From assembly GCA_049968235.1 (NCBI GenBank), contig JBMFRC010000001.1, forward strand, positions 288,001 to 352,000: a DNA stretch of 64,000 bases. Direction: 5' to 3'. This stretch comes from Candidatus Hydrogenedens sp. (GTDB lineage Bacteria; Hydrogenedentota; Hydrogenedentia; Hydrogenedentales; Hydrogenedentaceae). Both the position numbers and the translations under genes were made by a program. Shown here piece by piece: positions 34,178 to 52,184 of the stretch; the stretch's first letter is position 1, and each line of letters begins with the position of its first letter. The notes under the pieces were generated by a model that worked only from the letters and a program-made list of their open reading frames with translations, ran no database searches and was not told where the DNA came from.

Positions 34178-35338
34178 TTACCCAAATACCTGTCGCATGC
34201 GGTCACAATAATAACAAATGTTATCCCATTTTGCATCAGGAGGAATGCGATGGTCTGGACAAGGGATAAAACCACCCAAATCTACCAGAGGTTTTAGTCG
34301 TTCTATCTCACGGTCAACAGCATCTTTATCGTAAAGGAATACTACTTTGTTCATTCCTCCGACGCCGCGTAAACCTTTGCCATATTTCTCTCTCCATGGA
34401 GCAATGCTTGCGTTCCATGTGCCGACCTCTATTGGAAACATGGTATTCACACCATTACGGAACCATGTTGGAATAAGGGCATCAATACAGCCATCACAAT
34501 CCAGTGAAACAATATCCAGACCATAACTGCTACATAATTCTGTAATTCTTTTATAATGAGGTCCAACCAATTCATCAAATACAGAAGGAATTACCAGCGG
34601 TCCGTTCTTAAAGCAGATGTCCTCCCAGAAATGAGCGAAATCGTATCGGGCTCCGTTCTGTAAGGCTCGTTTTGTATTCTGATAGCAAAGTTCTCCATAA
34701 GTATTAATCATCTCCTTAAACAAATCCGGGTCATCGGCATAAATATAACTTAATCCTACTACACCGGTAATATTTCGTAACGAACCTAATAAACTTCCAC
34801 AATGCAATCCATAAAGATAATCCCGTTCATTTTTTTTGAGAAATTCCTCTCCTCCTTCTCCAAAAGGTATCATTTTATCATTGACACGAACCGGCGTTTT
34901 CAGTATCCTGTCTTCATTATATTGAAGTCTTGGCAAATAATACTCTTCCCAATCCTTTCGTGCTTTCAATAGGTGGTCAAACTCTGCTGGAATAGAAACA
35001 GCCCCCGGTTTTTCAAGGACAATAACACCATCTTCGCTTTGAATCTTTCTTGAACCATCCGGCAATTCTTCAATAGTTTTTCGCTCAAATAATGGTGCTA
35101 AATGGGCATTAGGTTTAAATACTGAATAATAATTGAAATCAAAACCTAACTTTTCACTTATTACTGCATCCACAGGATTTCCATCCACCCATTCTTTCGC
35201 TTCTTCCTTTGTAATATATCCTTCTTCTGCCCATTTTGTTAATGTCTCATTCCAAAAACCAAAATGAACTATCGGTAAACGGTCATACAGTTCATATCTC
35301 AAAACCGCAAGTGTTCTTTCCCTATGTGTCATTAACAT
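34178..35338 (-). CDS. uroporphyrinogen decarboxylase (URO-D/MtaA-like) family protein
   Basis: N-terminal ...ERTLAVLRYELYDRLPIV... pattern and a length of 386 aa fit the URO-D family. Function is unknown. Confidence 0.45.
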   Translation of the reverse strand: MLMTHRERTLAVLRYELYDRLPIVHFGFWNETLTKWAEEGYITKEEAKEWVDGNPVDAVISEKLGFDFNYYSVFKPNAHLAPLFERKTIEELPDGSRKIQSEDGVIVLEKPGAVSIPAEFDHLLKARKDWEEYYLPRLQYNEDRILKTPVRVNDKMIPFGEGGEEFLKKNERDYLYGLHCGSLLGSLRNITGVVGLSYIYADDPDLFKEMINTYGELCYQNTKRALQNGARYDFAHFWEDICFKNGPLVIPSVFDELVGPHYKRITELCSSYGLDIVSLDCDGCIDALIPTWFRNGVNTMFPIEVGTWNASIAPWREKYGKGLRGVGGMNKVVFLYDKDAVDREIERLKPLVDLGGFIPCPDHRIPPDAKWDNICYYCDRMRQVFG

Positions 35339-35592: not shown

Positions 35593-36624
35593 TTGAAAAA
35601 AAAGTTTTTATCTGAAATAATTATTTGTTTTTGTTTTTTACTCTTATCTCTTTCTACATATGGAGATGCATTAAAGTCTGTAACTATCCGTTTTCCTGCT
35701 ATGGGAACGGAGTTTGTATTTATTATCTATCCCCCCTCCGAAGGCATGCTTGAAGAAGATATCCGCAATTTATGTGAACCTGCTATAAATGCTGTTTATA
35801 ATCTTGAGAAGCATATCAGTCATTACTTACCTGATAATGACCTTGCACGGTTAAACCAATCGGCAGGTTCAGGTATGCTTAAAGTAAACAGTGACCTTTT
35901 TGAGGTTATCCGCTGGTCTAAACGATATTGGGAACGCACAGGTGGTGCCTTTGACCCGAGTGTGGGTCCTTTGCTGGACCTATGGGGATTTTATAGAAAA
36001 AATCGAGAGGACCTTCCTTCGGATAAAGAAATTTCTGAAGCATTAAAGAAAGTAGGTATGGATAAAGTAATTATAAATGGAGACGAACAATCTGTTGGAC
36101 TAACAGTTCCCGGGATGCGTCTTGATTTTGGCGGAATAGGAAAAGGATTGGCATTAGACCGAGCAAAAACGATATTAAAAGGACAGGGAATACAATCGGG
36201 CATATTGCATTCCGGAACAAGTTCGATTGTAGCCATTGGGACACCCCCCAACCAGACAGGTTGGAAAATAGGTATCCGTTCGCCTTATAATAAAAGTGAA
36301 ACGATTGAAGAATTTATAATTAATGATGAATCACTTTCTACATCTTCCGTTTCTGAACAGTTTTTGGAACGAAAAGGCAAAAAGTTTGGTCATATATTTA
36401 ACCCGAAAACAGGTTACCCTGTAGATAATAGTATTGTGAGTGCCACAGTTATTTGCAAAACTGCAGTTGAAAGTGATGCTTTAAGCACATCGTTTTTTGT
36501 ACTTGGTATTGATAAAACACAGGAATATTGTAAAAAATTTCAGGATGTGAAAGTTTTTCTGGTATCCGAAAGTAATAAAAAATTAGATAAACAATACATA
36601 AACCTTAAACAAAGCGAGGAATAG
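35593..36624 (+). CDS. apbE: FAD:protein FMN transferase (ApbE family), secreted
   Basis: Signal peptide. GGAFDPSVGPLLDLWGF and LDFGGIGKGLALD are ApbE motifs. Confidence 0.8.
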   Translation: MKKKFLSEIIICFCFLLLSLSTYGDALKSVTIRFPAMGTEFVFIIYPPSEGMLEEDIRNLCEPAINAVYNLEKHISHYLPDNDLARLNQSAGSGMLKVNSDLFEVIRWSKRYWERTGGAFDPSVGPLLDLWGFYRKNREDLPSDKEISEALKKVGMDKVIINGDEQSVGLTVPGMRLDFGGIGKGLALDRAKTILKGQGIQSGILHSGTSSIVAIGTPPNQTGWKIGIRSPYNKSETIEEFIINDESLSTSSVSEQFLERKGKKFGHIFNPKTGYPVDNSIVSATVICKTAVESDALSTSFFVLGIDKTQEYCKKFQDVKVFLVSESNKKLDKQYINLKQSEE

Positions 36625-36626
36625 CC

Positions 36627-38084
36627 ATGAAATCCAATGTCTCTCGTAGAAATTTTATCAAAACAGCAAGCACTGCCACAGGACTTATGGTAATGGCAGG
36701 AAAAGCCCCATTCTCCTATGCACTCAACGACAAAGTAAAGGTCGGTTGTGTGGGTTGTGGAGGACAGGGAAGTTTTCATATTAAAGATGGATTGATGGGT
36801 ACTTCTGATATTGTCATCACTGCGGTATGTGATGCGTATGGTCCCCATCAACGGTTAGCGGTGCAATTAGCCCAGATTTCAAATGCAGGTATTGCCCTTG
36901 AACCCGGACAGGGTCTAACCGAAGAACAACGGCAAAAGGCTCTGGCTGCATTCAAACCGAAGAGTTATTATGATTACCGTGAAATGTTAGAAAAAGAAGA
37001 ACTGGATGCAGTTGTAATTTCCACGCCACTCCATACACACTATCAAATAACTATGGATAGTTTGAGTGCCGGTAAATATGTCTTTTGTGAAAAGACTATG
37101 TGCTATGAGATTGAACAAGCACGAGACATCGTAAAGAAATGTCACGAAACAGGTAAATGGGTTCAGGTAGGACATCAACGGAGATACAATCCTTTATATA
37201 ACAAAGCCTTGATGATGATTTGGGAGGAGGGGACTATTGGTCGTATTGTTCATATTGATGCTCAATGGCACCGCAATAATGATTGGCGACGTCCGATTAA
37301 CAAAGACCATAAACTCAACTCTCAAGAAGCACGCTTCATTAAAGATTTAGAGCGATATATGAACTGGCGATTGTATAAAGAATCCTCCCGAGGCTTATTA
37401 ACAGAATTAGCAACGCACCAATTGGACATTGTTGCATGGTTCCTCGATGCTATGCCCAAACGGGTTCATGGTTGCGGTAGTCTGGATTACTGGAGAGACG
37501 GACGCGAAATTCACGATAGCATTAATATGATTTATGAATTTGATATAACCCCTGAAAATCGTGGCTACCGTGCTATTAATGCTCGCAGTAGTTATCAGGA
37601 TAAAAAGGCAATCAATCAACCTTACACAGTTCAATTAGCCTATTCCAGTATCACTGCTAATGCAAAGAAAGGATGTAATGAATTAATACAAGGTGATGAA
37701 GGGACTATTGAATTGAGTGAAGAGGGCGGAAGTTTCTATCCGGAAGCAACATCCAAAGTTTCCTGGGGCGAGTCCGGTAGTGCAGAACAAACCGCAACAG
37801 TCATCACTTCTGGTGGAACCTTAAAACTGAGTAATAAAGCCCTTCAAGAAGGCAAACCGATTGTTGTAGATAATACGCGTTCTGTTGACCAACTTCAATT
37901 TATGCGTTTTGCAAAAGATATTAAAGAAGGTGGCATTCCAAAGGCGAATCAGATGGTCGGATTACGTGCTACAATTATGGCTCTTGCAGGTTATCAGGCC
38001 ATAGAGGAAAAACGCATGGTTGAAATAGACCCGGCTCTCTACACCTTTGACTTCCCGACTCCCGACCCATCAACGGTTAGTTAA
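36627..38084 (+). CDS. Tat-exported Gfo/Idh/MocA family NAD(P)-binding oxidoreductase (a GH109-like glycosidase is not excluded)
   Basis: Twin-arginine signal (SRRNFIKTASTATGLMVMAG), a Rossmann motif VGCVGCGGQG, then the Gfo/Idh/MocA C-terminal domain. It starts 3 bp after apbE. Confidence 0.7.
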   Translation: MKSNVSRRNFIKTASTATGLMVMAGKAPFSYALNDKVKVGCVGCGGQGSFHIKDGLMGTSDIVITAVCDAYGPHQRLAVQLAQISNAGIALEPGQGLTEEQRQKALAAFKPKSYYDYREMLEKEELDAVVISTPLHTHYQITMDSLSAGKYVFCEKTMCYEIEQARDIVKKCHETGKWVQVGHQRRYNPLYNKALMMIWEEGTIGRIVHIDAQWHRNNDWRRPINKDHKLNSQEARFIKDLERYMNWRLYKESSRGLLTELATHQLDIVAWFLDAMPKRVHGCGSLDYWRDGREIHDSINMIYEFDITPENRGYRAINARSSYQDKKAINQPYTVQLAYSSITANAKKGCNELIQGDEGTIELSEEGGSFYPEATSKVSWGESGSAEQTATVITSGGTLKLSNKALQEGKPIVVDNTRSVDQLQFMRFAKDIKEGGIPKANQMVGLRATIMALAGYQAIEEKRMVEIDPALYTFDFPTPDPSTVS

Positions 38085-38154
38085 CATTTTCAATTTTTAT
38101 AGAACAGATTCATATAATAAAATTATAAACATATAAAAAAGAGAAAGTGATGCC

Positions 38155-41100
38155 ATGAGTAAATCGTGGAGAAGATGTATTTCATTATTAGTTTTCACTT
38201 TGGGTTTTCTGCCATTCCTTTCTATTTCAGCAAAGGAGACAACAGAACCATTACAAAACATTATAGAAAATTATGATAAATATATAGGCAGAGACCTTGT
38301 AATTAATAATCGTGCTCCCAACGCAAAAGTCATTCGCACACTACCTCTCTCATGCCCTCCTTTCCATTTAAGGGATAAAAATGGGGATATTATTGACCCG
38401 ACAAAAAATGCGGATGGGACACCCATTGACCCCAACCTGCCGGTTCAACAGCAAGGAATTCCCAGAGCGGTAAGCACAAAACAGACATGTGGAGCATGTC
38501 ATCCTTATGACAGGATTACTCATGGTTATCATTTTCAGATGGGTCGTGATGAACTTTATCCAGATACAGACCCGAGTAGTGGCGTTCCTAAAGATAAAAG
38601 TCCCGGGTTTTTCGGGAAATGGCTCTCTCTATATCAACGGGAATTGGTAGGAAAACATTTTGAAAATCCTGAACAGGTAGATATGACTCCTTTTGACTGG
38701 ATTGTAAATTGTGGAGTATGTCATCCCGGTGGTGGACCTGCTGAATATGACCGTTCCGGTAAAAATTATGCAACGGTGAAAAAAACAAGTCCATTAGCAG
38801 GTTCTTTTGGGGATGGAGATTACCACGAATCCCCATGGGAAAAAACAGGGGTTATTGAAGCGGATTGTTTCATTTGTCACCTTGAAGATTATGAATATTC
38901 CCTTCGTGCTCAACAGATAAAAAAATGGAACTTCGAATATGCAGCAACTGCGGGTGCTGGCTTTGGTTTCGTTTGGGGCTCAACCATTGATGGACAAGAG
39001 CCCAAAGTTTACTATAACAAAAGCCTTTTCCGTGCAGATGGAACAGTGCACCTACACATTCGCCGTCCAACAGACCGTCAATGTATGTTCTGCCATGATA
39101 TGTCCAGTGTTCAGAAACGTGGAATTTCATGGCACTCTCCATATATGCAGGATGTTCACACAGAACAAGGTCTGAAATGTATTGATTGCCACCATGGTGA
39201 TATCCGCCACAATTTTGCAAAAGGAGATTCTTCTATACAAACAGTTCGCGATGATTTGGATAATACAATTTTATCCTGTAAAAAATGTCATTACCAACAG
39301 GAAAAAGGCGCCCCGTACCCCGAACATAAAGGATTACCTCCTTTACATCTGGAACGGATAGATTGTACAGCGTGCCATATAACGCATCGTCCATTCTTGC
39401 CTGTATCTATTATTGACCCATTAACAGGCAAAGCCATAACTTTACCGGAAATCCAGGATATGAATTATTGGGGAGCCTTTGAATTCGGCGGTTTTTGGGG
39501 TTGGTCGCGAAGTAGAGACGATGCAAATCTTATATTTCCTTATACCGAAGACCAATTAAAGCAGGCTAAGGAATATATTATTTCTAATGAAGACAATATT
39601 CGCAAAATGTTCAAAGAAGCATTTTTGACAGACCTGCCCGAAGGGAATATTAAAGTCGCCGATTTCATCCAGCAAAAACAGGGACTTGAAAATTCAGAAG
39701 CCCGTGGATTAATGCTGATTACATTATCCCAATTAGTCCGTCCTGCAAAAGAAGCATTCCCGGTTGTTGTTTTCCGAAATCAAGCATACTCCTACGATGC
39801 CGGGCAAATACGGGAATTAAAAACAACACCACAACCGAAACGACCCGGTGCTACTATTATCGAATCTTCTTTTGATTTAGGTAGAAGTAAACCTGATGGA
39901 AAAATCTATGCTCAGAATACTCAGGTTTCCGCATATTGGGTTTATACTGATGGGGAGGAGGTTCGTCCTGTATTGCTTAAAGACATGAAGAAGGCTTACG
40001 ACTGGTTAACATCACAAGAATATAGTTTCTCTCTTTATTCCGCACAGCCTCAGAATGGACAGACTTCTCCTGCACTTCCGGAAAATCCATTCAAACAGGC
40101 ACAACAGACAACTACAACCTCATCGGAAAATACCGGAGCATTACAATCGCAAACATCTCCTCCCTCAGATACAGCAGAACGTAAAAAGACAGCGGAAGAA
40201 GTTCGTCAAATAGCAGAGATGGAAGAAAACCTAAAATCTGCTATACAGAAAAAAATAAAGGTATATTCCACATCGGACACTCGACCATTAAAAATTTATG
40301 ACGATAACAATGATACCTTCCCCGAAGTAAATTCTCAGGAAGAAATCGGCTTGTTCGCATGGGCACTTAAACAGACTGTTCCATCGCTACGCGAAAAAGA
40401 TTTATATTACTTGAGAGGAACCACTGTTTTTCGTGTTAGTGTTAAAGGCGGAGAAAATCCTTATGACCGTGAGTTTTTAGATATGGACCGTATTGGTGAG
40501 AATAAACCTTTCATAGCCATTACGAGATACGAACAGAAAGAAGAATCCGGTGAATATAGTTGGGACAAACCGAAACAAGTTTGGAAACCTGTCGAAATAC
40601 GACTTTGTTCGCCGTATGAAGCAGAGATTGTGCAAGTTGACCCGAAGGCATATCCATCTATTATCGCTATGGCAAAACCATTAGAATGGACTGTCTCTCA
40701 TGGTGTAGAACCTGCAAGCCGTGCATACGGTGCTAAAGGTTGTACAGAGTGCCATTCAGAAAATTCTTCATTCTTCATGGGTAGTATGCTCGTAGACCCA
40801 TTTTCTGAAAACGGGACGCCCAAATATGTTCCCCTATGGCATATCTTGGGCTACGATATTTCCAACTTGAAAATAGGAGCATGGCGCGAAGGTGTATTGA
40901 AAAAATATGCCCCATGGATTGTGCTCATACAATTATTACTCATTCTTGTACACTATGTCCTTATCGGGAGAAAAGAAGGAACACCTGTTGGGAAACCTAA
41001 TGTCCTTCGTTTCCGTTTTTATGAACGAATAGCCCATGCGATTGCCATGATTAGTGTTACATTCCTGGCTATTACGGGTTTCTTCTTCCTTATGGGTCAA

Positions 41101-41601
41101 CATGACCCCTTAGGACCCTGGGCAAGGGTGTGGCATACATGGTTTGGTTATGTCGCATGTGCGGGTGTTGTATTTATCTTCTTATCCTGGGTAGCCTTCA
41201 TGTTCCCTGCTAAAGGGGATTTCCGTTGGTTATTGAAAGCAGGCGGTTATTTAGGTGGTGTTAAAGGACATGTTCCAGCGGGCAAATTTAATGCCGGGCA
41301 AAAAATCCTATTCTGGTTAGCAATACTTGCATCAGGGACCTGTGGAATAACAGGTGTTGTTATGGGACTTAATCGTGGTTTTCACTTCCCAAATCAAGAA
41401 ATATTCTATACGATACACGATATATCTGCACTGGTTATGATTCTGGTACTCATTGCTCATATTTATTTAGCCGCCTTTGTTGTCCCTCACAGTTTGCGGG
41501 CTATTTTCGGAGGAAAGGTAAGCGATATATGGGCAAAAGAACACCATTCACTCTGGGCTTTTACAGTAATTGATGAAAAAAACAATTCATCTGAACATTA
41601 A
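38155..41601 (+). CDS. multiheme c-type cytochrome (8 CxxCH) fused to a C-terminal FdnI/HydC-like di-heme cytochrome b membrane domain (CbcL-like domain content)
   Basis: Signal peptide, then eight CxxCH motifs (CGACH, CGVCH, CFICH, CMFCH, CIDCH, CKKCH, CTACH, CTECH). A Q/T/S/P-rich low-complexity linker follows, then four or five TM helices with conserved His (HAIAMISV, WHTWFGY, HDISALV...IAHIY). Confidence 0.8.
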   Translation: MSKSWRRCISLLVFTLGFLPFLSISAKETTEPLQNIIENYDKYIGRDLVINNRAPNAKVIRTLPLSCPPFHLRDKNGDIIDPTKNADGTPIDPNLPVQQQGIPRAVSTKQTCGACHPYDRITHGYHFQMGRDELYPDTDPSSGVPKDKSPGFFGKWLSLYQRELVGKHFENPEQVDMTPFDWIVNCGVCHPGGGPAEYDRSGKNYATVKKTSPLAGSFGDGDYHESPWEKTGVIEADCFICHLEDYEYSLRAQQIKKWNFEYAATAGAGFGFVWGSTIDGQEPKVYYNKSLFRADGTVHLHIRRPTDRQCMFCHDMSSVQKRGISWHSPYMQDVHTEQGLKCIDCHHGDIRHNFAKGDSSIQTVRDDLDNTILSCKKCHYQQEKGAPYPEHKGLPPLHLERIDCTACHITHRPFLPVSIIDPLTGKAITLPEIQDMNYWGAFEFGGFWGWSRSRDDANLIFPYTEDQLKQAKEYIISNEDNIRKMFKEAFLTDLPEGNIKVADFIQQKQGLENSEARGLMLITLSQLVRPAKEAFPVVVFRNQAYSYDAGQIRELKTTPQPKRPGATIIESSFDLGRSKPDGKIYAQNTQVSAYWVYTDGEEVRPVLLKDMKKAYDWLTSQEYSFSLYSAQPQNGQTSPALPENPFKQAQQTTTTSSENTGALQSQTSPPSDTAERKKTAEEVRQIAEMEENLKSAIQKKIKVYSTSDTRPLKIYDDNNDTFPEVNSQEEIGLFAWALKQTVPSLREKDLYYLRGTTVFRVSVKGGENPYDREFLDMDRIGENKPFIAITRYEQKEESGEYSWDKPKQVWKPVEIRLCSPYEAEIVQVDPKAYPSIIAMAKPLEWTVSHGVEPASRAYGAKGCTECHSENSSFFMGSMLVDPFSENGTPKYVPLWHILGYDISNLKIGAWREGVLKKYAPWIVLIQLLLILVHYVLIGRKEGTPVGKPNVLRFRFYERIAHAIAMISVTFLAITGFFFLMGQHDPLGPWARVWHTWFGYVACAGVVFIFLSWVAFMFPAKGDFRWLLKAGGYLGGVKGHVPAGKFNAGQKILFWLAILASGTCGITGVVMGLNRGFHFPNQEIFYTIHDISALVMILVLIAHIYLAAFVVPHSLRAIFGGKVSDIWAKEHHSLWAFTVIDEKNNSSEH

Positions 41602-41659
41602 TTTCCTTTACAATTAAACGTTATAACACATTATTTATCATTAACATTGGGAGTATCTT

Positions 41660-42226
41660 ATGAAAATCCTGTCTTTATTGGGAAGCCCTAAAAAAAATGG
41701 GAACTCCGCACATGCATTGAACTATCTCGAAGAACAACTGAAACAACAGAACCATGAAATAAAACATATCCATGTCTCTTCCTTCCTTATTGAAGGGTGT
41801 AGGGAATGTTATTGGTGTAAACAGGAGGGGAATTTTTTGTGTTGCAATAACGATGATGCAATACCTATCTTAAAAGGAATGCTTGATTCAGATGCTATTA
41901 TCTTTTCTGCACCGACCTTTTGTTGGGGTTTTCCCGCACAAATGAAAGCCCTTTTCGACCGCATGTTCTGCCTGATTTCATGGAAAGAAGGAGATAGTGA
42001 AAATAAATCTTTGCTGAAAGGGAAAACTATGGCACTCATTGTAACTGCAGGGGGTGAAGTGAAAAATAATGCAGAACTTTTAGGAATTGCCTTCAACAAT
42101 ATGGCAGAATTTATGAATTGTAAATCTGCAGGGATAGTTTATATTGCCCCCTGCGAAGGTATTCATTCTATCAATGATAAGATAAAAAAACAATTAGACA
42201 ACTTAGCCCAAAATCTGAGTATCTAA
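41660..42226 (+). CDS. flavodoxin-like fold NAD(P)H-dependent FMN reductase or iron-sulfur flavoprotein-like protein
   Basis: MKILSLLGSPKKNGNS... is an FMN-reductase-like N-terminus, with a Cys cluster CRECYWCKQEGNFLCC. Confidence 0.55.
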   Translation: MKILSLLGSPKKNGNSAHALNYLEEQLKQQNHEIKHIHVSSFLIEGCRECYWCKQEGNFLCCNNDDAIPILKGMLDSDAIIFSAPTFCWGFPAQMKALFDRMFCLISWKEGDSENKSLLKGKTMALIVTAGGEVKNNAELLGIAFNNMAEFMNCKSAGIVYIAPCEGIHSINDKIKKQLDNLAQNLSI

Positions 42227-42523: not shown

Positions 42524-43759
42524 TTATCTTTCGTTAGAATTATTCTTCAGGATTCCCCTTACCTTGCTATTTTGTGTCAATAACAAGAAGGAAAGAATTA
42601 CTAAAACAAATATATCACTCAGATGTGAATTTGTTGAAGGTCCACCGGAACCGCAAGATACAATGAAAGTTCTCTTGGCTCCTTTACTCATTACCAGTAT
42701 AACCTCTGTCCCCTTAACAACTTCAGTTCCAACAGAGGGCTCGGTTCGGATTATGCTCCCTTTCGGTACATCTTTGCTATATTCTTCTTTAATCGTTGCG
42801 GATACCTTAAGTCCTGCAGATGTTAGTATTTGAATAGCCTCGTCTTTAGATTTTCCTTTAACATCCGGCACTTTTACTTTCTGAATAGGTTCTCCTTCAT
42901 TACTTCCTTCGGGAGTACCTTCAACTACACCTTCAGGGGTTCCTTCTGGACTACCTTCCTGATGACCTTCGACTGTTCCTTCGCCTTCTGCATTCCCTTC
43001 GACAGAACCTTCTGTGCTTCCTTCTATACTACCCTCTTGCATACCTTCAGGAATGCCTTCTGTTGAACCTTCTTGTGCTCCTTCTCCTTCGAGAGTGCCT
43101 TCTATTATACCTTCTTGCTGTCCTTCGGTGATTCCTTCAACATTTCCTTCGCCTTCTGCAGGCGGTTCTAATGGAAGTATTTTAGGTGCTTTCGGGTCAT
43201 CAAACATGGGAACATAAGCAAATATATCGTTGATTTGGACTTGAGCCAAATTTATTTGTGCATCCCCGGTTTGTTTCATACGGAACAATACTTTGAGCAA
43301 TTCAAGACTTCCCTTAGCACCGATATTTTCAGAACTGCTTCCTGCAATTTTCAGACTACCTGTAGCATTTGCATTAGAGTTATAACTTAACTTCATATTG
43401 CTAACTGCATCACCTAATACGACCTCCATTACCTCCGCATATTCTTTATCGAAATTAATTACAAGAGAGAAGCCCGCTATATTGGATACATTGTTCATTA
43501 CCACAGATACCCACTTTTCAGAGCCTGCTGTTCCAGATAAGTAATCTGTTAATTGGGCATAAACAGTTGCATCCTCTTTTTCTACTCGTGCAAGGGTAGA
43601 CTCCGCAGACAAAGAACCTGCATCTGCCAGCCATTTTAAGTCGCTTATATAGTCTTCATAACTCTTTGCGTCTATTTTCTTTCCTGTTGGCATTACATCT
43701 TTACCTGTTAACCAGCGTTGTAGCATGCTGGAGTCAGCACTATCCACCATTCCATCCAT
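42524..43759 (-). CDS. surface protein segment A: cohesin-like domain, xxEG tetrapeptide-repeat linker, PASTA domain and a C-terminal Cys/Gly-motif + TM + basic anchor (probably the 3' part of a disrupted giant gene)
   Basis: Cohesin-like IAGFSLVINFDKEYAEVMEV...GSLELLKVLFRMKQTGDAQI, about 25 xxEG repeats, and PASTA VPDVKGKSKDEAIQILTSAGLKV. The C-terminus is SCGSGGPS...IFVLVILSFLLL...KVRG. The frame is open upstream to 43855 and encodes a dockerin repeat (SGDFNMDGMVDSADSSMLQRWL). Confidence 0.6.
   Translation of the reverse strand: MDGMVDSADSSMLQRWLTGKDVMPTGKKIDAKSYEDYISDLKWLADAGSLSAESTLARVEKEDATVYAQLTDYLSGTAGSEKWVSVVMNNVSNIAGFSLVINFDKEYAEVMEVVLGDAVSNMKLSYNSNANATGSLKIAGSSSENIGAKGSLELLKVLFRMKQTGDAQINLAQVQINDIFAYVPMFDDPKAPKILPLEPPAEGEGNVEGITEGQQEGIIEGTLEGEGAQEGSTEGIPEGMQEGSIEGSTEGSVEGNAEGEGTVEGHQEGSPEGTPEGVVEGTPEGSNEGEPIQKVKVPDVKGKSKDEAIQILTSAGLKVSATIKEEYSKDVPKGSIIRTEPSVGTEVVKGTEVILVMSKGAKRTFIVSCGSGGPSTNSHLSDIFVLVILSFLLLTQNSKVRGILKNNSNER
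42900..43170 (-). repeat. coding tandem repeat: about 25 units of 12 nt encoding xxEG tetrapeptides
   Basis: Periodic ...ccttc... on the plus strand, which is GAAGG(N) on the coding strand. Similar arrays lie at about 44950-45135, 45545-45715 (including a perfect 21-nt duplication encoding MSEGEG twice), 52330-52440 and 54650-54690. Confidence 0.7.
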
Positions 43760-43845: not shown

Positions 43846-46179
43846 TTACTTCATATTATTATCCGCATCACCAAAGACACATCCGTCTGTAACACACAAT
43901 TGTCCATCTTCTAATATAAGTTCTAACGGTTGTGTAAATGAGGAGATCACATCGTATAGGCGAACTCCATTGCCGGCTCCATCATCCGGAATAAGGTGTA
44001 ACTGTCCACATAAAGGACCTAAAACAGATAAATTGGGTTTAGCAATAATATTAAACAGAGTCCCAGCACCATACAAACTTTCTGCTTTTATTCCTGCTGC
44101 AGCAATTCGAACATTAATTGTCTCACCTTGAGGTATAGCTAATGATGCTATCATCATCCCACTAGTAATACCTGATGGTAATACGGTGATAGTCTCGGGG
44201 TCTGATATTAAGGCAGATGGCAATTCCGAATCAATCTGTATGGATGTTGCTGAAACATCATAAACTGATTTTGAGTTCACGGGAATACGAATAAGTATTT
44301 CATCAAGATTTTGTGGATTCGGTTGTAGCCAATAAAGACTGGTATCTGTTATATTAACCTGTTCAGGGAAGAATACGGTTAAGTATTGTCCACGAACCGT
44401 CTCCGAAGCATCTGATAACACAGTATAACGGTCCACATCACTTACAGCCTGTATGGCATATTGGTAGTAAATCCCTAATTCTACCGCATTATCTATATAT
44501 TCTAATGTTGTTAGATAACCTTCATAAGGCAACCTGTCCGGATTATTCAATCGTTGCCAATCTGTCAATGAATTCCCATCTCTATCTACTGTCCTGCGAT
44601 ACACATTATAGCCAGCAATATTATACTCAGGATTTGTATCCCATGCTACGCGAACACTATGCGGTCCACTATAAGGACGTGGACGGAATGATTTTTGAAT
44701 ATTTCCGGGGTCTAATTCAACAAGCAATTCAGCATTGGTATCCACAGGTTGTATCGTTTTGGGCTTATATTTCCGCTTTGTAAAGTCCAAACGATATGGC
44801 GGTTGCAATGTACCTAAATCTGGAAAGGCAAAACGTCCATTATTATCTGTTAGCACAGGTTCATTCCCTTTACTATCTGCAACGCTAATTTGGACTAATA
44901 CACCGGGAATCGGGCTTTTGCTTATACTATTTATCACCTGACCACGAACACCTGCATATTCGCCTTCGAATGTCCCTTCCGTAGTTCCTTCAATAGTTCC
45001 CTCCGGAATTCCTTCAATTACTCCTTCAGGTATTCCTTCAACATTACCATCCATAGGACCTTCGGGAATCCCTTCGATAACACCTTCAATTGTTCCTTCC
45101 GTTACACCTTCAGGTGTCCCTTCTTCACAGGGTCCTGTGGAAACCCAGATATCCACAGGTATTTCTATTGTATTCTCATAATTACAAGTGCCTTCTACAG
45201 CCATAGGTTCTTGCAAAGCGATGTATCCAGCGGGATAATTATTATCACATACCTCAACAATCTGTCCTAATAATAATCCATAATCTACAATTAATTGTTG
45301 TGCCTCTTCCAATGACATACCTATAACATTAGGAACTATGGTACAGGGTCCACAAGAGATAATCAGGTCAACGATTGTTCCAATCTCTACTGTATTTCCA
45401 CCACCGGGTATTTGTTCAACGACTGTGCCTGCCGGGTATTGGTCATTGCACATCTCAATAATAGCACCAATATTTAGGTTGGCATTACTAATTTCTCCCG
45501 TTGCTTCCTGTTGCGGAAGTCCTATCATATATGGAACTATAGTTGTTTCAATAGCACCTTCGCCTTCAGACATCCCTTCGCCTTCAGACATCCCTTCGCC
45601 TTCGAATAGCCCTTCTGAACTGCCTTCAATACTACCTTCGGTAGTTCCTTCAAATGAACCTTCTCCTTCTACAATACCTTCAACTACACCGGGTTCAGGC
45701 TCTCCAATAACAGGATTGAGTGGGTCTTCAAATCTTGGGGTATGTCCATATTTATCGTGTATCTGAACCTGAACAAATTTAATATCGCCTTTTCCATCTC
45801 GCTTAATCTTAAACTTTACTTTTACCAATTCAACTTCTCCAGAGGTTCCCAACTCTTCTTCACCTCCCGCACTTATCCGCAAACTGCTACTGGAACCAGA
45901 ATTTACTACTTCATAATTCCATCGCCATATATTTGCTGCATTCACAGGTTTTACCTGCTTTACTTCAGCAAAATCACTATCATAATTCAAGACAAATTCA
46001 AATCCTGCCACATTTGTTACTTCATCAGCCACAATGGCAATCCATTTATCACTGCCTGCAGACCCTTCTAATGTGCCACGGAACCACACCTTTACTCCCA
46101 CATTATTCTTTTCTAATTTGGCTAACTTTGCTTGTGCGGATAGGGAACCATGGGAAGCTAACCATTTCAATTCATCCAC
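43846..46179 (-). CDS. surface protein segment B: cohesin-like, EG linkers, 2 PASTA, CarboxypepD_reg-like, Fn3-like, cohesin-like, then dockerin repeat 1 (interrupted). No signal peptide of its own, so it is probably the middle part of a disrupted giant gene.
   Basis: The domains can be read off the translation. The frame is open upstream to an in-frame TGA at 46270-46272, and the upstream region encodes dockerin repeats GDVNNDSVIDSTDEQFVLDYW and GDINLDG*VDSADSSLIQRWL. At the 3' end a -1 shift inside dockerin repeat 1 (GDADNNMK* versus in-frame VNDLDTQYILDYW) leads into segment A. Confidence 0.6.
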   Translation of the reverse strand: MDELKWLASHGSLSAQAKLAKLEKNNVGVKVWFRGTLEGSAGSDKWIAIVADEVTNVAGFEFVLNYDSDFAEVKQVKPVNAANIWRWNYEVVNSGSSSSLRISAGGEEELGTSGEVELVKVKFKIKRDGKGDIKFVQVQIHDKYGHTPRFEDPLNPVIGEPEPGVVEGIVEGEGSFEGTTEGSIEGSSEGLFEGEGMSEGEGMSEGEGAIETTIVPYMIGLPQQEATGEISNANLNIGAIIEMCNDQYPAGTVVEQIPGGGNTVEIGTIVDLIISCGPCTIVPNVIGMSLEEAQQLIVDYGLLLGQIVEVCDNNYPAGYIALQEPMAVEGTCNYENTIEIPVDIWVSTGPCEEGTPEGVTEGTIEGVIEGIPEGPMDGNVEGIPEGVIEGIPEGTIEGTTEGTFEGEYAGVRGQVINSISKSPIPGVLVQISVADSKGNEPVLTDNNGRFAFPDLGTLQPPYRLDFTKRKYKPKTIQPVDTNAELLVELDPGNIQKSFRPRPYSGPHSVRVAWDTNPEYNIAGYNVYRRTVDRDGNSLTDWQRLNNPDRLPYEGYLTTLEYIDNAVELGIYYQYAIQAVSDVDRYTVLSDASETVRGQYLTVFFPEQVNITDTSLYWLQPNPQNLDEILIRIPVNSKSVYDVSATSIQIDSELPSALISDPETITVLPSGITSGMMIASLAIPQGETINVRIAAAGIKAESLYGAGTLFNIIAKPNLSVLGPLCGQLHLIPDDGAGNGVRLYDVISSFTQPLELILEDGQLCVTDGCVFGDADNNMK

Positions 46180-49925: not shown

Positions 49926-52184
49926 ATGCATTTCTGGCTGATTAATGACAATGTTTTATTAAAATCTTCCCGTGCAGACATCGGTGGAAAAGGCTGGGGG
50001 CTGGTTCGATTAAAATTACAGGGATTAAATGTGCCACCTTTCGGAATAATCAGCACAGAAGGTGTGAAATATAAACTCTGGAAAACCGATACAGATTTTC
50101 AAAATGCAATAATGGCATGGTGTAAAGAGATATGGGATTGTTCCATAAGTAAGAAAGTAATCGTCCGCTCATCTGCATGTGAGGAAGACCATCAACATCA
50201 TTCTTTTGCAGGAAAGTTTTTAACAGAGGTTATAACAAAGCCAGAAGAACTTGTTCCAACACTGGACAGGATAGCCAAACATTATGCTTTAACTATAAAA
50301 ATGGATACGGGGAATTTTTCTGAAGGTCCCCATGGACTTGCAATTATTCTCCAGGAGTTTGTCAGTGGTGAAATCTCCGGCGTATGCTTTTCGACCCGAC
50401 CTATGAATGCAAATCCTCAACAAGTATATTGTGAAGTAGTAAATGGTGAAAATAAGTTGTTGGTTGATGGGGAAATACAACCCACTCGGATACTTTTTTA
50501 TCCCTCCACCGCAGAATTGATAGATTTTCAGGAAGGTTCTAATGGACCTGAATCAATACCTGAAGAATTATTAATAGAATTATCTCATGGGCTAATGAAG
50601 ATGGAATGGGATTACCGCACTGCAGTGGATATGGAATGGACATGGAATGGTAACAAGGTATGGTTTTTACAGATTCGCCCAATTACAAAGGTAACTCCTT
50701 CCCATAATTTATATCCAAAGGAATGTGCTACTTGCTGGTTTTTTGACCAACGTTTTATTGAACCGATTACAACTATTACCCAAACCACACTTATTCCGTT
50801 AATCCTGAGAAAGGCAATCACAGAGGGACTTAACATGCGACGAAAAAATACCCCCATTGAACCGTATTACTTTGGGGGTCAGGTGTATATCCCCCATCGG
50901 GCTTACTTCGATTTACTGGAGGGTTGTCCTAAATGGTGGCTTTCCTCCGATTTAAAACTGTTATTCCCTAATAACTGTGGTTGCCCGCATAAAAAAAAGA
51001 ACTTCCTGGGAATAGAATTCTGGCTGGATGCTTTTCGTTCATTGTTAAAACACTGGCGTGATGCTATTTTTGTGTTATGTCGCTGGGGACAATGGAAGAA
51101 GGATTTATCAAAGAAATTAAGTCTGTGGAATAAGGAGGATTTGTCAGAGATTACAACAGATGAATGGGTAACGCAATGGGAGCAATGCCAGAGATTATCC
51201 GAAGAATTTTTAGAAATACATCGCTGGGCAATACTCTGGTCCAGTTATGTATATCGTTTAGGGGGAAAGTATATCGTTCGTGGTAAGGAAAGACAGTATC
51301 CCTCTATTACGACACGGGCAAATCACATATTGACATCTTATTTATTCACCCGTGACATAAAATTATTAGCCCTCCTTCGCACTGAATATTCACACCGCAC
51401 AGAAAGTCTCGATTTTATATCTCCTCGATGGGGAGAATGGCTTTCCGGTGAGGAACAAAATGAATTGTTTAAAACGCAATTATTAGAGGAGAGGAAAGAT
51501 ATTCCATTAACATCACTGCAAACAAGGGAAAAAGCAGGTATTCTGTATCGTATTTTCGCAAAGTTTATACATCTGCGTGAGGAACAACGATTTGAATGGG
51601 AAAAAATATTAAATGTACAGAAAAAATTATTAAAGGAAGCAGGTAAACGATTGGTAGAAAAAGGTATCTTGATGGAGATAAATCAGGTCTGGTTTATAAG
51701 CGGGCTGGAATTAATGGAAGCACTTATAAAGGATAAGCCAATTAATCTAAAAGAAGTTTTGCTACGCCAACATCAATGGTGCGTTGAACATATATTTACA
51801 AAACCATTATTTATCAACGAAGGTGGTTTCATACTATCTACTTCCGAAAAAGATAAAGATACATGGTCAGGCTGGGGTGTGTCCGAAGGAAGAGTAAAAG
51901 GGACTGCCTATGTGAGCAGTAATCCGACTTCACTCCCATCCAATATCGCACATCCTCGTATTCTTGTAACACCTTGTTTAAATCCCGGACAGACATGGTG
52001 TCTGCAATACTGGGACGGTGTTCTATTGGAACGAGGCAGTGAACTGTCTCATCCTGCTATCATTGCACGGGAGATGAATATCCCCATGATTGCGAATTTA
52101 CCTGAGATTACACATAAACTAAACACGGGCGATTTAATTTATATAGATGCAACTTATGGTAAAGTTAGCCGTTTAAAATCTTAA
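49926..52184 (+). CDS. PEP-utilising enzyme family protein: N-terminal PPDK-type ATP-grasp (PEP/pyruvate-binding) domain plus C-terminal phosphohistidine mobile domain (rifampicin-phosphotransferase-like architecture)
   Basis: N-terminus ADIGGKGWGLVRL. The C-terminus has GRVKGTAYV... and ...ILVTPCLNPGQTW...ERGSELSHPAIIAREMNIPMIA (swivel His). There is no PEP-utilising TIM-barrel domain. Confidence 0.65.
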   Translation: MHFWLINDNVLLKSSRADIGGKGWGLVRLKLQGLNVPPFGIISTEGVKYKLWKTDTDFQNAIMAWCKEIWDCSISKKVIVRSSACEEDHQHHSFAGKFLTEVITKPEELVPTLDRIAKHYALTIKMDTGNFSEGPHGLAIILQEFVSGEISGVCFSTRPMNANPQQVYCEVVNGENKLLVDGEIQPTRILFYPSTAELIDFQEGSNGPESIPEELLIELSHGLMKMEWDYRTAVDMEWTWNGNKVWFLQIRPITKVTPSHNLYPKECATCWFFDQRFIEPITTITQTTLIPLILRKAITEGLNMRRKNTPIEPYYFGGQVYIPHRAYFDLLEGCPKWWLSSDLKLLFPNNCGCPHKKKNFLGIEFWLDAFRSLLKHWRDAIFVLCRWGQWKKDLSKKLSLWNKEDLSEITTDEWVTQWEQCQRLSEEFLEIHRWAILWSSYVYRLGGKYIVRGKERQYPSITTRANHILTSYLFTRDIKLLALLRTEYSHRTESLDFISPRWGEWLSGEEQNELFKTQLLEERKDIPLTSLQTREKAGILYRIFAKFIHLREEQRFEWEKILNVQKKLLKEAGKRLVEKGILMEINQVWFISGLELMEALIKDKPINLKEVLLRQHQWCVEHIFTKPLFINEGGFILSTSEKDKDTWSGWGVSEGRVKGTAYVSSNPTSLPSNIAHPRILVTPCLNPGQTWCLQYWDGVLLERGSELSHPAIIAREMNIPMIANLPEITHKLNTGDLIYIDATYGKVSRLKS

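What the first reader, a model, noticed from the sequence alone, without database searches (positions are those of the whole stretch)
35593..42226. Periplasmic redox module: ApbE, Tat-exported Gfo/Idh/MocA, an 8-heme cytochrome c fused to a cytochrome b anchor, and a flavodoxin-like protein
Four co-directional genes with 3-60 bp gaps. The 1148-aa protein carries eight CxxCH motifs in its first ~420 residues. A ~450-aa region without heme motifs follows, including a Q/T/S/P-rich linker at ~40015-40230. It ends in a four- to five-helix FdnI/HydC-type b-cytochrome domain (40855-41601) with conserved His pairs. Established knowledge: Geobacter CbcL joins the same two domain types and acts as an inner-membrane quinol oxidoreductase for extracellular electron transfer. 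ApbE flavinylates periplasmic redox proteins. The Tat Gfo/Idh/MocA protein could be the catalytic dehydrogenase or a GH109-like enzyme. I did not see a canonical flavinylation motif (D-x-x-[ST]-G-A-[TS]) in the neighbours, so the ApbE target is unknown.
Basis: partly seen in the sequence, partly recalled or inferred. Interest (0 to 1): 0.75.

Follow-up and report, generated by a model that had tools for sequence, protein, structure and literature searches.

The report
Periplasmic dehydrogenase wired to quinone pool
A conserved three-gene unit in Hydrogenedentota bacteria appears to couple a secreted sugar-type dehydrogenase, through a probably enzyme-attached flavin and a chain of ten hemes, to the membrane quinone pool, which would answer how exported NAD-containing dehydrogenases get rid of their electrons.

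Summary
The four co-directional genes exist as described: ApbE, a Tat-exported Gfo/Idh/MocA, a 1148-aa multiheme c / FdnI-type cytochrome b fusion, and an FMN_red protein. One detail is wrong. Seven CxxCH motifs lie in the first 408 residues, and the eighth (aa 863) sits just before the membrane domain.

All four FdnI heme-b histidines and the quinone-site motif are present.

ApbE–Gfo–cytochrome is strictly syntenic in 28 of 28 informative genome loci, down to 35–39% identity. The FMN_red gene is clade-specific and cytoplasmic. Shorter relatives of the cytochrome lack ApbE and Gfo.

The ApbE target is probably the Gfo enzyme. It carries a relaxed flavinylation motif (T-S-G-G-T, aa 394–398; exactly SGAT in one ortholog) on a low-confidence loop. 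The wider Tat-Gfo family sits directly behind apbE in 78 of 103 loci from several phyla, with variable downstream partners (this cytochrome, YceI, or none).

Best reading: a respiratory periplasmic dehydrogenase:quinone oxidoreductase, running NAD(H) → tethered FMN → 8 c hemes → 2 b hemes → menaquinone at the cytoplasmic face.

A CbcL-like extracellular-electron-transfer role is not supported by the context. Flavinylation, substrate and direction of electron flow are all inferred, not shown.

The parts
35593..36624 (+). ApbE-family FAD:protein FMN transferase (343 aa) with an N-terminal hydrophobic signal or anchor
   Evidence: Pfam PF02424, 4.7e-75. The best solved relative is Listeria FmnB 7esa, 6.9e-42, and the catalytic His267, Ser251 and Asp295 align. 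It lies immediately upstream of the Gfo gene in all informative loci.
36627..38084 (+). Tat-exported Gfo/Idh/MocA NAD(P)-dependent oxidoreductase (485 aa)
   Evidence: Pfam PF01408, PF22725 and PF02894. AF2 model pLDDT 88.9. The top Foldseek hit is periplasmic Zymomonas GFOR 1evj, 7.8e-21. Sequence features present: GCGGQG Rossmann motif, invariant D69, K156 in E-K-T, and E260/H264.
36642..36662 (+). Twin-arginine motif SRRNFIK of the Gfo protein
   Evidence: TIGR01409 scores 20.2 against a cut-off of 16.7. The RR motif is invariant in 72 homologs.
37806..37820 (+). Candidate ApbE flavinylation site T-S-G-G-T (aa 394-398; acceptor T398)
   Evidence: It is the only [ST]G[AGS][ST] match in the four proteins. 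It is conserved as T-[ST]-G-[GAS]-[TS] in 25 of 26 triad orthologs, with TSGAT in L028. It lies in a loop with pLDDT ~64. G396 is one of only four positions that separate ApbE-linked members from the ApbE-less clade. This is an inference; no biochemical evidence exists.
38155..41601 (+). 1148-aa fusion protein: Sec signal peptide, 7-heme c module, heme-free middle region, 8th heme c, extra TM helix, FdnI-type di-heme cytochrome b
38233..39390 (+). N-terminal periplasmic heptaheme module (CxxCH at aa 112, 186, 238, 310, 342, 375, 404)
   Evidence: The motifs are conserved in orthologs; heme 2 cysteines are lost in three of them. There is a weak relation to the TIGR04314 methanogenesis multiheme cytochrome (4.6e-12, below cut-off). 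No close solved relative was found.
39391..40692 (+). Heme-free middle region (aa 413-846): two folded subdomains joined by a disordered Q/T/S/P-rich linker (about 40102-40176)
40741..40755 (+). Eighth heme c motif CTECH (aa 863-867), inside the invariant block SHGVEP...C..CH just before the membrane
   Evidence: It is also conserved in short forms. It is inferred to be the heme that hands electrons to heme bP.
40891..40974 (+). Extra transmembrane helix (aa 913-940, invariant H933) that brings the chain from the periplasm to the cytoplasm
   Evidence: Hydropathy analysis, invariance of H933, and the topology argument from the FdnI alignment.
41002..41556 (+). FdnI/HydC-type four-helix cytochrome b domain (aa 950-1134), with heme ligands H961, H994, H1088, H1102 and the motif F-N-A-G-Q-K (aa 1045-1050)
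   Evidence: phmmer against 1kqf_C, 2.5e-22, with all four His aligned. TIGR01583 128.5 bits against a cut-off of 115.85. Pfam PF01292 68.7 against 30.1.
41660..42226 (+). FMN_red / iron-sulfur-flavoprotein-like protein (188 aa). Cytoplasmic and clade-specific; probably peripheral to the module
   Evidence: PF03358 5e-24. No signal peptide, and C47-x2-C50-x2-C53-x7-C61. Present only next to cytochromes of >=75% identity.

Best explanation
The conserved unit is ApbE + Tat-exported Gfo/Idh/MocA + multiheme-c/cytochrome-b fusion. I read it as a periplasmic dehydrogenase:quinone oxidoreductase that works in five steps.

1. The Gfo enzyme folds around NAD(H) in the cytoplasm and is exported by Tat, as Zymomonas GFOR is.
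2. In the periplasm, ApbE attaches FMN by a phosphoester bond to T398, on a flexible loop of the Gfo enzyme.
3. The enzyme oxidises a periplasmic sugar, polyol or glycoside. The tethered FMN takes the hydride from the bound NAD(P)H and converts a two-electron step into one-electron steps.
4. Electrons pass along seven c hemes, across or past the family-specific middle region (possibly the docking platform for the dehydrogenase), to the eighth c heme next to the membrane.
5. They continue to heme bP (H994/H1088) and heme bC (H961/H1102), and reduce menaquinone at a cytoplasm-facing site, as in E. coli Fdn-N. This charge separation would contribute to the proton-motive force.

Shown here: the gene content, the synteny, the domain identities, the heme and quinone-site residues, the topology logic, and catalytically competent ApbE residues. 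Inferred: flavinylation of Gfo and its site, the substrate, physical docking, and the direction of electron flow.
For: Synteny. ApbE-Gfo-cytochrome are co-directional in 28 of 28 genome loci that have upstream DNA, down to 35-39% identity, and in 12 further metagenome loci.

The wider Tat-Gfo family.
- The gene lies directly behind apbE in 78 of 103 cases and in 18 of 21 clusters at 60% identity. These include Acidobacteriota, Armatimonadota and Chlorobiota.
- The downstream partner varies: this cytochrome, a membrane-anchored YceI protein, or nothing.
- Gfo is therefore the constant partner of ApbE.

The candidate site.
- The relaxed motif is conserved on a loop with pLDDT ~64.
- G396 is one of four positions that discriminate ApbE-linked from ApbE-less members.
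- The motif tolerates such substitutions experimentally (PMC12052999).
- The same 'orphan apbE + conserved neighbour + motif' logic found DUF2271 and DUF3570, which were then verified. That survey also states that further substrates remain unidentified (PMC8238504).

Other support.
- The ApbE catalytic His, Ser and Asp are conserved.
- The Gfo fold is closest to periplasmic GFOR.
- The FdnI alignment shows all four His ligands and the FNAGQK motif.
- YceI partners in paralogous units point to quinone as the sink (YceI as an isoprenoid/quinone binder is from my own knowledge).
- The electron acceptor of Tat-exported Gfo-type dehydrogenases is an acknowledged unknown (PMC8121099).
Against: - There is no biochemical evidence for flavinylation.
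- The motif lacks the canonical Asp and has Gly or other residues (K, E, S) where Ala is usual.
- Several ApbE-linked clades have only T/S-A-T, G-A-T or G-G-A-S variants at the site.
- When sequences are collapsed to 60% identity clusters, the strict [ST]Gx[ST] pattern is not significantly associated with ApbE (7 vs 11 clusters; Fisher p = 1). The ApbE-less set is essentially one clade, and it also keeps the Thr.
- A few family members lack an adjacent apbE (L081, L073, L094, L077).
- No flavin-binding pocket has been identified.
- The substrate is unknown.
- For a secondary alcohol/ketone couple, the driving force to menaquinone against the membrane potential would be marginal (my estimate).
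- The nearest named organism, Ca. Hydrogenedens terephthalaticus, comes from a methanogenic reactor, where the fate of menaquinol is unclear.
Confidence: 0.5

Rival explanations
1. The three proteins do form an electron-transfer unit between Gfo and the quinone pool, but ApbE does not modify T398 of Gfo. Its target would be another residue of Gfo, a non-canonical site in the cytochrome or YceI partner, or a protein encoded elsewhere. Alternatively, ApbE could act here as a periplasmic FAD/FMN-handling protein.
For: The motif is non-canonical and variable. The cluster-level association is not significant. The acceptor Thr is also present in the ApbE-less clade. T157 (E-K-T instead of E-K-A/P) is another position specific to ApbE-linked members.
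Against: No other [ST]G[AGS][ST] match exists in ApbE, the cytochrome, FMN_red or the YceI partners. The invariant 'W-A-A-T265' of the cytochrome is also conserved in ApbE-less short forms. 'RPGAT' at aa 563-567 is not conserved in the P0037 clade, which keeps ApbE. The partner protein varies whereas Gfo is constant. T157 lies in the catalytic strand and is unlikely to be reachable in a folded, Tat-exported protein (inference).
Confidence: 0.2
2. The wiring is the same but it runs the other way. Menaquinol is oxidised at the cytoplasmic-face site, electrons are driven outward by the membrane potential through the b and c hemes and FMN, and the Gfo enzyme reduces a periplasmic carbonyl compound such as a keto-sugar. 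The unit would then be a periplasmic reductase or electron sink.
For: Gfo/Idh/MocA members include reductases such as 1,5-anhydro-D-fructose reductase, which appears among the fold hits. CbcL, with the same architecture, is proposed to oxidise quinol (PMC6295460). Nothing in the sequence fixes the direction.
Against: Reducing bound NAD(P)+ (about -320 mV) from menaquinol (about -74 mV) needs most of the membrane potential (established redox values; my estimate). Paralogous units use YceI, which fits quinone as the acceptor. The catalytic residues are those of dehydrogenases.
Confidence: 0.15
3. One reading: the fusion protein is a CbcL-type inner-membrane quinol oxidase that feeds extracellular electron transfer, and the neighbouring genes are accessory.
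For: It has the same domain order as CbcL: N-terminal multiheme c and a C-terminal HydC/FdnI-like b domain.
Against: It is the only CxxCH ORF in the 64 kb window, and no outer-membrane cytochrome or porin genes lie nearby. It has 8 hemes rather than 9, and 5 predicted helices rather than 6. It has a 454-residue insertion not reported for CbcL. The long form is always coupled to ApbE and Gfo, whereas the short forms, which are more CbcL-like in size, are not. Orthology to GSU0274 was not tested.
Confidence: 0.1
4. There is no net electron transfer between the proteins. The Gfo protein would be a GH109-like NAD-dependent glycoside hydrolase or a GFOR-like ping-pong enzyme that recycles its own cofactor, and the synteny would reflect co-regulation only.
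For: GH109 (2ixa) and NAD-dependent glycoside hydrolases (8qc2, 8qc8) are among the sequence and fold hits. Liu et al. proposed a second sugar as the acceptor for BT2158.
Against: Strict gene order with 2-bp or overlapping junctions persists across 35-98% identity and several phyla, always with a flavin transferase. Hits to dehydrogenases are stronger than hits to GH109.
Confidence: 0.05

Closest known systems
E. coli formate dehydrogenase-N gamma subunit FdnI (PDB 1kqf chain C) and the HydC/FdnI cytochrome b family (PF01292, TIGR01583)
   Same: The four-helix core, all four heme-b His ligands (18/57/155/169 = 961/994/1088/1102), the N-A-G-Q loop motif, and a cytoplasm-facing quinone site implied by the alignment. 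The extra helix before the core plays the topological role of the FdnH C-terminal anchor (inference).
   Different: It is fused to a periplasmic 8-heme c-type domain rather than docking an Fe-S subunit. No FdhA or FdhB genes are nearby, so the public annotation 'formate dehydrogenase subunit gamma' is misleading.
Geobacter sulfurreducens CbcL and the CbcL/MtoC/MtrH group (PMC6295460)
   Same: A single polypeptide with N-terminal CxxCH hemes and a C-terminal HydC/FdnI-like membrane domain. The published group spans 416-1034 aa and 3-23 hemes.
   Different: It is 1148 aa, with 8 hemes split 7+1 by a 454-residue heme-free region of no known fold, and 5 predicted helices. It is obligatorily linked to ApbE and a Tat-Gfo dehydrogenase. 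There is no extracellular-electron-transfer context. Sequence orthology to CbcL was not tested.
Zymomonas mobilis glucose-fructose oxidoreductase (GFOR)
   Same: It is the best structural match to the Gfo protein. It is exported by Tat and holds non-dissociable NADP (PMC8121099).
   Different: GFOR re-oxidises its cofactor with a second sugar. Here the gene is flanked by a flavin transferase and a heme/quinone module, and the protein has about 100 extra residues, including the motif-bearing loop.
ApbE/FmnB flavinylation systems (NqrC, RnfG, PplA, DUF2271, DUF3570, FMN_red extensions)
   Same: A periplasmic FMN transferase is encoded next to its extracytosolic redox substrate, which carries a [S/T]GA[S/T]-like motif on an exposed segment.
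   Different: The proposed substrate is an NAD(P)-dependent Rossmann dehydrogenase, a class not listed among known substrates in the papers searched. The motif lacks the Asp and usually the Ala.
Membrane-linked periplasmic sugar dehydrogenases with cytochrome c subunits (glucoside 3-dehydrogenase LacABC/ThuAB type)
   Same: It is the functional analogue: periplasmic sugar oxidation feeds the respiratory chain via c-type hemes (mentioned in PMC8121099).
   Different: Liu et al. describe those enzymes only as cytochrome c-dependent periplasmic 3-ketoglycoside dehydrogenases. That they are FAD enzymes with separate small cytochrome subunits is my recollection and was not checked here. The present unit would use NAD plus tethered FMN and a fused 8c+2b cytochrome.

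Membership tests
FdnI/HydC cytochrome b (PF01292 / TIGR01583) | Profile score above the curated cut-off | tested here: met
   PF01292 68.7 bits against 30.1. TIGR01583 128.5 against 115.85.
FdnI/HydC cytochrome b (PF01292 / TIGR01583) | Four His ligands for two b hemes: one in helix 1, one in helix 2, and two in helix 4 spaced 14 residues apart | tested here: met
   H961, H994, H1088 and H1102 align with FdnI H18, H57, H155 and H169. They are invariant or >=90% conserved.
FdnI/HydC cytochrome b (PF01292 / TIGR01583) | Partner is a formate dehydrogenase or hydrogenase Fe-S subunit | tested here: not met
   No such genes occur in the window or in the related loci. The electron-input module is a fused multiheme c domain.
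CbcL/MtoC/MtrH-type fused cytochromes | N-terminal CxxCH hemes plus a C-terminal HydC/FdnI-like membrane domain in one polypeptide | tested here: met
CbcL/MtoC/MtrH-type fused cytochromes | CbcL proper: nine hemes and six helices | tested here: not met
   Eight CxxCH motifs and five predicted helices. The hydropathy method used is crude.
CbcL/MtoC/MtrH-type fused cytochromes | Sequence orthology to GSU0274 | not tested
CbcL/MtoC/MtrH-type fused cytochromes | Function in extracellular electron transfer, or genomic link to outer-membrane conduits | tested here: not met
   No other cytochrome or porin-like conduit genes occur in the 64 kb window or in the flanks of related loci. The function itself cannot be tested with these tools.
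ApbE FMN transferase | PF02424 domain and the catalytic His/Ser/Asp | tested here: met
   4.7e-75. H267, S251 and D295 align with the FmnB triad.
ApbE FMN transferase | Extracytosolic location | tested here: met
   N-terminal K-rich segment followed by a hydrophobic segment. No formal signal-peptide predictor was available.
ApbE substrate | Canonical D-x-x-[S/T]-G-A-[S/T] motif | tested here: not met
   None occurs in any frame of the window.
ApbE substrate | Relaxed [S/T]GA[S/T]-like motif on an exposed segment of an extracytosolic protein encoded next to apbE | tested here: met
   Gfo T-S-G-G-T at aa 394-398, loop pLDDT ~64, Tat-exported, conserved in orthologs.
ApbE substrate | Covalent FMN demonstrated | not testable with these tools
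   This needs co-expression, UV fluorescence on gels, and mass spectrometry.
Gfo/Idh/MocA oxidoreductase | Rossmann GxGxxG, the catalytic Lys of the E-K-P-type motif, the C-terminal alpha/beta domain, and the overall fold | tested here: met
   GCGGQG (aa 43-48), E-K-T with K156, and Pfam N- and C-terminal domains. Foldseek hits to GFOR and many family members at about 1e-20.
GH109-like NAD-dependent glycosidase | Closer relation to GH109 than to dehydrogenases | tested here: inconclusive
   2ixa scores 7.7e-6, against DgpA at 1.6e-14 and inositol dehydrogenases at about 1e-12. Only the Rossmann half aligns by sequence.
Iron-sulfur flavoprotein / FMN_red | FMN_red fold plus a compact CX2CX2CX4-7C motif | tested here: met
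   PF03358 5e-24. C47, C50, C53 and C61 are present. The motif definition is from my own knowledge.
ApbE-substrate class of FMN_red proteins (PMC11334425) | Extracytosolic location and a C-terminal extension carrying a flavinylation motif | tested here: not met
   No signal peptide, no motif, no extension.

The most novel reading that the evidence does not exclude
Tat-exported NAD-containing Gfo/Idh/MocA dehydrogenases are an unrecognised, multi-phylum class of ApbE substrates. A covalently tethered FMN on a swinging loop re-oxidises the non-dissociable NAD(P)H and hands single electrons to interchangeable sinks. Those sinks are an 8c+2b fused cytochrome in Hydrogenedentota, YceI-bound quinone in paralogous units, or unlinked acceptors elsewhere. 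This would explain how periplasmic Gfo-type sugar dehydrogenases achieve net oxidation, and it would define a new respiratory entry point for sugars.
Probability: 0.45. Interest if true: 0.85.

Novelty: new variant of a known kind. Interest (0 to 1): 0.72.

Why it matters
Exported Gfo/Idh/MocA dehydrogenases are very common in polysaccharide-degrading bacteria. How their tightly bound NAD(P)H is re-oxidised in the periplasm is an admitted gap: for Bacteroides BT2158 the authors could only propose 'an as yet unidentified sugar' (PMC8121099). This locus offers a concrete, testable wiring diagram from flavin transferase to dehydrogenase to heme chain to quinone.

It also points to a candidate new substrate class for ApbE. 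The largest survey of flavinylation states that some substrates remain unidentified (PMC8238504).

Two practical consequences follow. The misleading public annotation 'formate dehydrogenase subunit gamma' can be corrected. And CbcL-like architecture alone is shown not to be evidence for extracellular electron transfer.

Tried and rejected
- A strict six-frame search of the whole window for D-x-x-[ST]-G-A-[TS] found nothing.
- FMN_red as the ApbE target: rejected. It has no signal peptide, no motif and no extension, and it is not conserved outside the close clade.
- 'RPGAT' (aa 563-567) in the middle region: rejected, because the Thr is lost in the P0037 clade, which keeps ApbE.
- Invariant 'W-A-A-T265' in the heme domain: rejected as ApbE-specific, because ApbE-less short forms keep it.
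- A motif/ApbE contingency test collapsed to 60% identity clusters was not significant. Only the gene-level count (p ~ 9e-7) and the discriminating-position analysis give support, and both depend on a single ApbE-less clade.
- The promoter/terminator scan was uninformative.
- The N-terminal heme module has no close solved relative.
- The afdb50 fold library was unavailable.
- Model coordinates could not be accessed, so the distance from T398 to the NAD site was not measured.
- Literature searches combining ApbE with Gfo/Idh/MocA, and looking for Hydrogenedentes cytochromes, returned nothing relevant.

Full report
**1. Observation**

The region holds four co-directional ORFs. They are 35593-36624 (343 aa), 36627-38084 (485 aa), 38155-41601 (1148 aa) and 41660-42226 (188 aa). 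The gaps between them are 2, 70 and 58 bp.

Pfam assigns ApbE (4.7e-75) to the first ORF. The second has the GFO_IDH_MocA N- and C-terminal domains plus a weak TAT signal. The third has Ni_hydr_CYTB at aa 953-1120 (7e-19) plus several multiheme families. The fourth is FMN_red/Flavodoxin_2.

The 1148-aa protein has eight CxxCH motifs, but they are split. Seven lie at aa 112, 186, 238, 310, 342, 375 and 404. The eighth is at aa 863. The 454-residue heme-free stretch sits between heme 7 and heme 8.

This protein is the only CxxCH-containing ORF in the whole window. No canonical D-x-x-[ST]-G-A-[TS] occurs in any reading frame of the window.

**2. Organism and family**

Homologs of the 1148-aa protein are nearly all from Candidatus Hydrogenedentes/Hydrogenedentota. 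The closest named genome is Ca. Hydrogenedens terephthalaticus, at 92% identity. Public records call the protein 'formate dehydrogenase subunit gamma'. That name follows from TIGR01583 scoring above its cut-off on the C-terminal 185 residues. No formate dehydrogenase catalytic genes are nearby.

**3. The cytochrome b domain is genuine**

The C-terminal 248 residues align with E. coli FdnI (1kqf_C) at E = 2.5e-22. Counting along that alignment gives these equivalences:

| FdnI residue | This protein |
|---|---|
| His18 | H961 |
| His57 | H994 |
| His155 | H1088 |
| His169 | H1102 |

The last two histidines are 14 residues apart in both proteins. These residues are invariant or at least 90% conserved in 23 orthologs. 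The exceptions are two orthologs that have a different C-terminal domain.

The loop motif K-F-N-A-G-Q-K (aa 1044-1050) matches FdnI K-Y-N-A-G-Q-K. From my memory of the 1kqg HQNO complex, this loop lines the cytoplasm-facing menaquinone site.

Hydropathy analysis gives five helices. The first (aa 913-940, with invariant H933) precedes the FdnI-like four. It is needed to carry the chain from the periplasm to the cytoplasm, so that the core adopts FdnI's N-in topology. That topology places H994/H1088 near the periplasm (heme bP) and H961/H1102 near the cytoplasm (heme bC).

**4. The rest of the cytochrome**

- The N-terminal heptaheme module has only weak profile matches: TIGR04314 'methanogenesis multiheme cytochrome' at 4.6e-12 (below cut-off) and NrfA-type heme-packing fragments.
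- The eighth heme lies in an invariant block, W-T-x-S-H-G-V-E-P...G-C-T-x-C-H, directly before the membrane. It is the obvious donor to heme bP, though this is an inference.
- The middle region (aa 413-846) has no Pfam or NCBIfam match.
- An AF2 model built from 12 orthologs has pLDDT 70 overall. It shows two confident alpha/beta subdomains (aa ~460-645 and ~675-835).
- A full HMMER scan of 1.84 billion representative proteins finds only 15 hits. Nearly all are long-form relatives or fragments of them.
- Shorter relatives of 720-930 aa come from Abyssobacteria, Desulfobacterales and others. They align with aa 177-412 and aa 847-1144, and only weakly with aa 697-760. The first middle subdomain is therefore specific to the long form.

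**5. Synteny**

In every genome locus with a long-form cytochrome and enough upstream DNA (28 of 28), the order is apbE, gfo, cytochrome, all on one strand. This holds down to 35-39% identity and includes one 'FCB group' bin. Twelve further metagenome loci show the same order, and one (L081) lacks the apbE.

The FMN_red gene follows only in the clade with at least 75% identity. That protein has no signal peptide. It carries C47-x2-C50-x2-C53-x7-C61, which resembles an iron-sulfur flavoprotein. I treat it as peripheral to the module.

Short-form cytochrome loci have neither ApbE nor Gfo within 8 kb.

**6. The ApbE target**

A relaxed search for [ST]G[AGS][ST] hits once in the four proteins: Gfo T-S-G-G-T at aa 394-398. 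Among 26 distinct triad orthologs, the segment reads T-[ST]-G-[GAS]-[TS] in 25. One of these (L028) has the canonical TSGAT, and the P0037 clade has S-E-G-K-T. Among 120 database homologs of 47-88% identity, all carrying Tat signals, the pattern [ST]-G-x-[ST] predominates.

Four paralogs chosen for long contigs all have apbE immediately upstream. In one of them ApbE is fused to Nramp. Downstream they have a membrane-anchored YceI-like protein in place of the cytochrome.

A metagenome scan with the family's signature peptides gave 80 more loci. Over all loci, apbE lies directly upstream on the same strand in 78 of 103 informative cases. It does so in 18 of 21 clusters at 60% identity.

Members of the distant ApbE-linked clusters are annotated from Acidobacteriota (Blastocatellia), Armatimonadota (Chthonomonadetes) and Chlorobiota. 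These are often two-gene units with no obvious third partner.

Gfo is thus the constant partner of ApbE, while the electron sink varies.

**7. How strong is the site assignment?**

- At gene level, [ST]Gx[ST] at the aligned site occurs in 57 of 79 ApbE-linked genes and 4 of 25 unlinked genes (Fisher p ~ 9e-7).
- The unlinked set is essentially one clade, with I-E-P-T-P-T-R-R at the site. At cluster level the test is not significant.
- Several ApbE-linked clades carry variants at the site: V-T-A-T, A-S-A-T, A-G-A-T, G-G-A-S.
- An unbiased comparison gives some independent support. Only four of 485 positions are at least 85% conserved in ApbE-linked members and different in the ApbE-less clade: T157, R186, G396 and G445. 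G396 is the motif glycine.
- In the AF2 model (pLDDT 88.9), the motif lies in the only internal low-confidence stretch, aa 371-410, with pLDDT about 64. That fits an exposed, mobile segment.
- Experimental work shows the motif tolerates loss of the Asp and partial changes at the Gly and Ala positions (PMC12052999).
- The window's ApbE keeps the catalytic His, Ser and Asp of Listeria FmnB.
- The same reasoning (orphan apbE, conserved neighbour, motif) led to DUF2271 and DUF3570, which were then confirmed. That survey states that further substrates remain unidentified (PMC8238504).
- None of the flavinylation papers searched mentions Gfo/Idh/MocA as a substrate.

I rate 'Gfo is the ApbE substrate' at about 0.65. 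I rate T398 as the site somewhat lower.

**8. The dehydrogenase**

The best fold match is periplasmic Zymomonas GFOR (7.8e-21). It is followed by many sugar, inositol and glycoside 3-dehydrogenases. Sequence matches cover mainly the Rossmann half: DgpA, inositol dehydrogenases, and weakly the BT_2158 glycoside 3-dehydrogenase family.

The GxGxxG motif, the invariant D69 (which suggests NAD rather than NADP; this is my inference), K156, and E260/H264 are all present. The substrate cannot be named.

**9. Mechanism**

The proposed sequence is:
1. Tat export of the NAD-loaded enzyme.
2. Periplasmic flavinylation by ApbE.
3. Substrate oxidation.
4. Hydride transfer from NAD(P)H to the tethered FMN.
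5. One-electron transfers into the c-heme chain.
6. Heme 8 to heme bP to heme bC.
7. Menaquinone reduction at the cytoplasmic face, as in Fdn-N, which would be electrogenic.

The long-form-specific middle region is a candidate docking surface for the dehydrogenase, because it co-occurs with ApbE and Gfo. The YceI-containing paralogous units suggest the same dehydrogenase chemistry delivering electrons to protein-bound quinone.

The direction of flow is not fixed by sequence. A membrane-potential-driven reductase mode remains possible.

**10. Comparison with known systems**

The fusion shares CbcL's domain order (PMC6295460). It differs in heme number, in the large insertion, in helix count, in its obligatory partners, and in lacking any extracellular-electron-transfer context. 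It is a bona fide FdnI-family cytochrome b, but not a formate dehydrogenase subunit.

The acceptor problem for Tat-exported Gfo-type dehydrogenases is explicitly open in the literature (PMC8121099).

**11. Verdict**

The most valuable outcome is a specific, testable hypothesis: a flavinylated periplasmic NAD-dependent dehydrogenase wired to the quinone pool.

I class this as a new variant of known kinds of parts. If the flavinylation is real, it would also be a new class of ApbE substrate.

Noticed in passing
L033, L034, L039-L045, L047-L052 (e.g. L033:8235-8237; L039:8181-8183): All 15 short-form relatives of the cytochrome have a conserved in-frame TGA directly after the invariant G-K-W motif (window protein: G154-K155-W156, followed by L157). 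The flanks are conserved on both sides. A hairpin, GCCAGUUGGC, lies 22-32 nt downstream; it is invariant at nucleotide level and has two covarying outer pairs. This looks like a selenocysteine codon with a SECIS element inside a multiheme domain. Public annotations start the protein after the TGA.
   Followed up: partly
L053-L056, L065-L070, L072, L073, L076, L084: Paralogous ApbE-Tat-Gfo units in Hydrogenedentota are followed by a membrane-anchored YceI-like protein with a long A/E/P-rich linker, instead of the cytochrome. A DeoC-family aldolase gene is divergently upstream in three of the four loci inspected.
   Followed up: partly
L054:5587-8004: ApbE is fused to an Nramp metal-transporter domain (805 aa), directly upstream of a Tat-Gfo gene.
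   Followed up: no
Alignment A1, window cytochrome aa 186-190 (38710-38724): Three orthologs (P0048, P0055, P0063) have lost both cysteines of the second CxxCH (N-E-G-V-F-H / N-S-G-I-L-H). They keep the His and the invariant H-P-G-G-G-P. That heme may be bound non-covalently in these proteins, or lost.
   Followed up: no
Alignment A1, P0060 and P0067: Two long-form orthologs keep the heme and middle regions but have a different C-terminal membrane domain, with a different His pattern that is not FdnI-like. This suggests the membrane anchor has been swapped.
   Followed up: no
window 34178-35338 (-): A 386-aa protein with a sub-threshold URO-D match is divergently adjacent to apbE. Its orthologs keep this position in the close clade. 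A different URO-D-family gene sits just downstream of the cytochrome in the 45% identity P0037 clade.
   Followed up: partly
window 42524-43759 (-), 43846-46179 (-), 52173-57416 (-): Three large predicted secreted proteins combine PASTA repeats with a cohesin domain. The 1747-aa protein also has GLUG motifs and EF-hand/dockerin-like repeats. This is an unusual domain combination.
   Followed up: no
window 38155-41601 and its public homologs: Public records name these 1100-1200-aa multiheme fusion proteins 'formate dehydrogenase subunit gamma', because TIGR01583 passes its cut-off on the last 185 residues. No formate dehydrogenase genes are adjacent.
   Followed up: yes
window 8657-9739 (+): One ORF combines ADH_zinc_N and GFO_IDH_MocA Rossmann domains. 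It is a second, apparently cytoplasmic, Gfo-type protein in a polysaccharide-synthesis neighbourhood.
   Followed up: no
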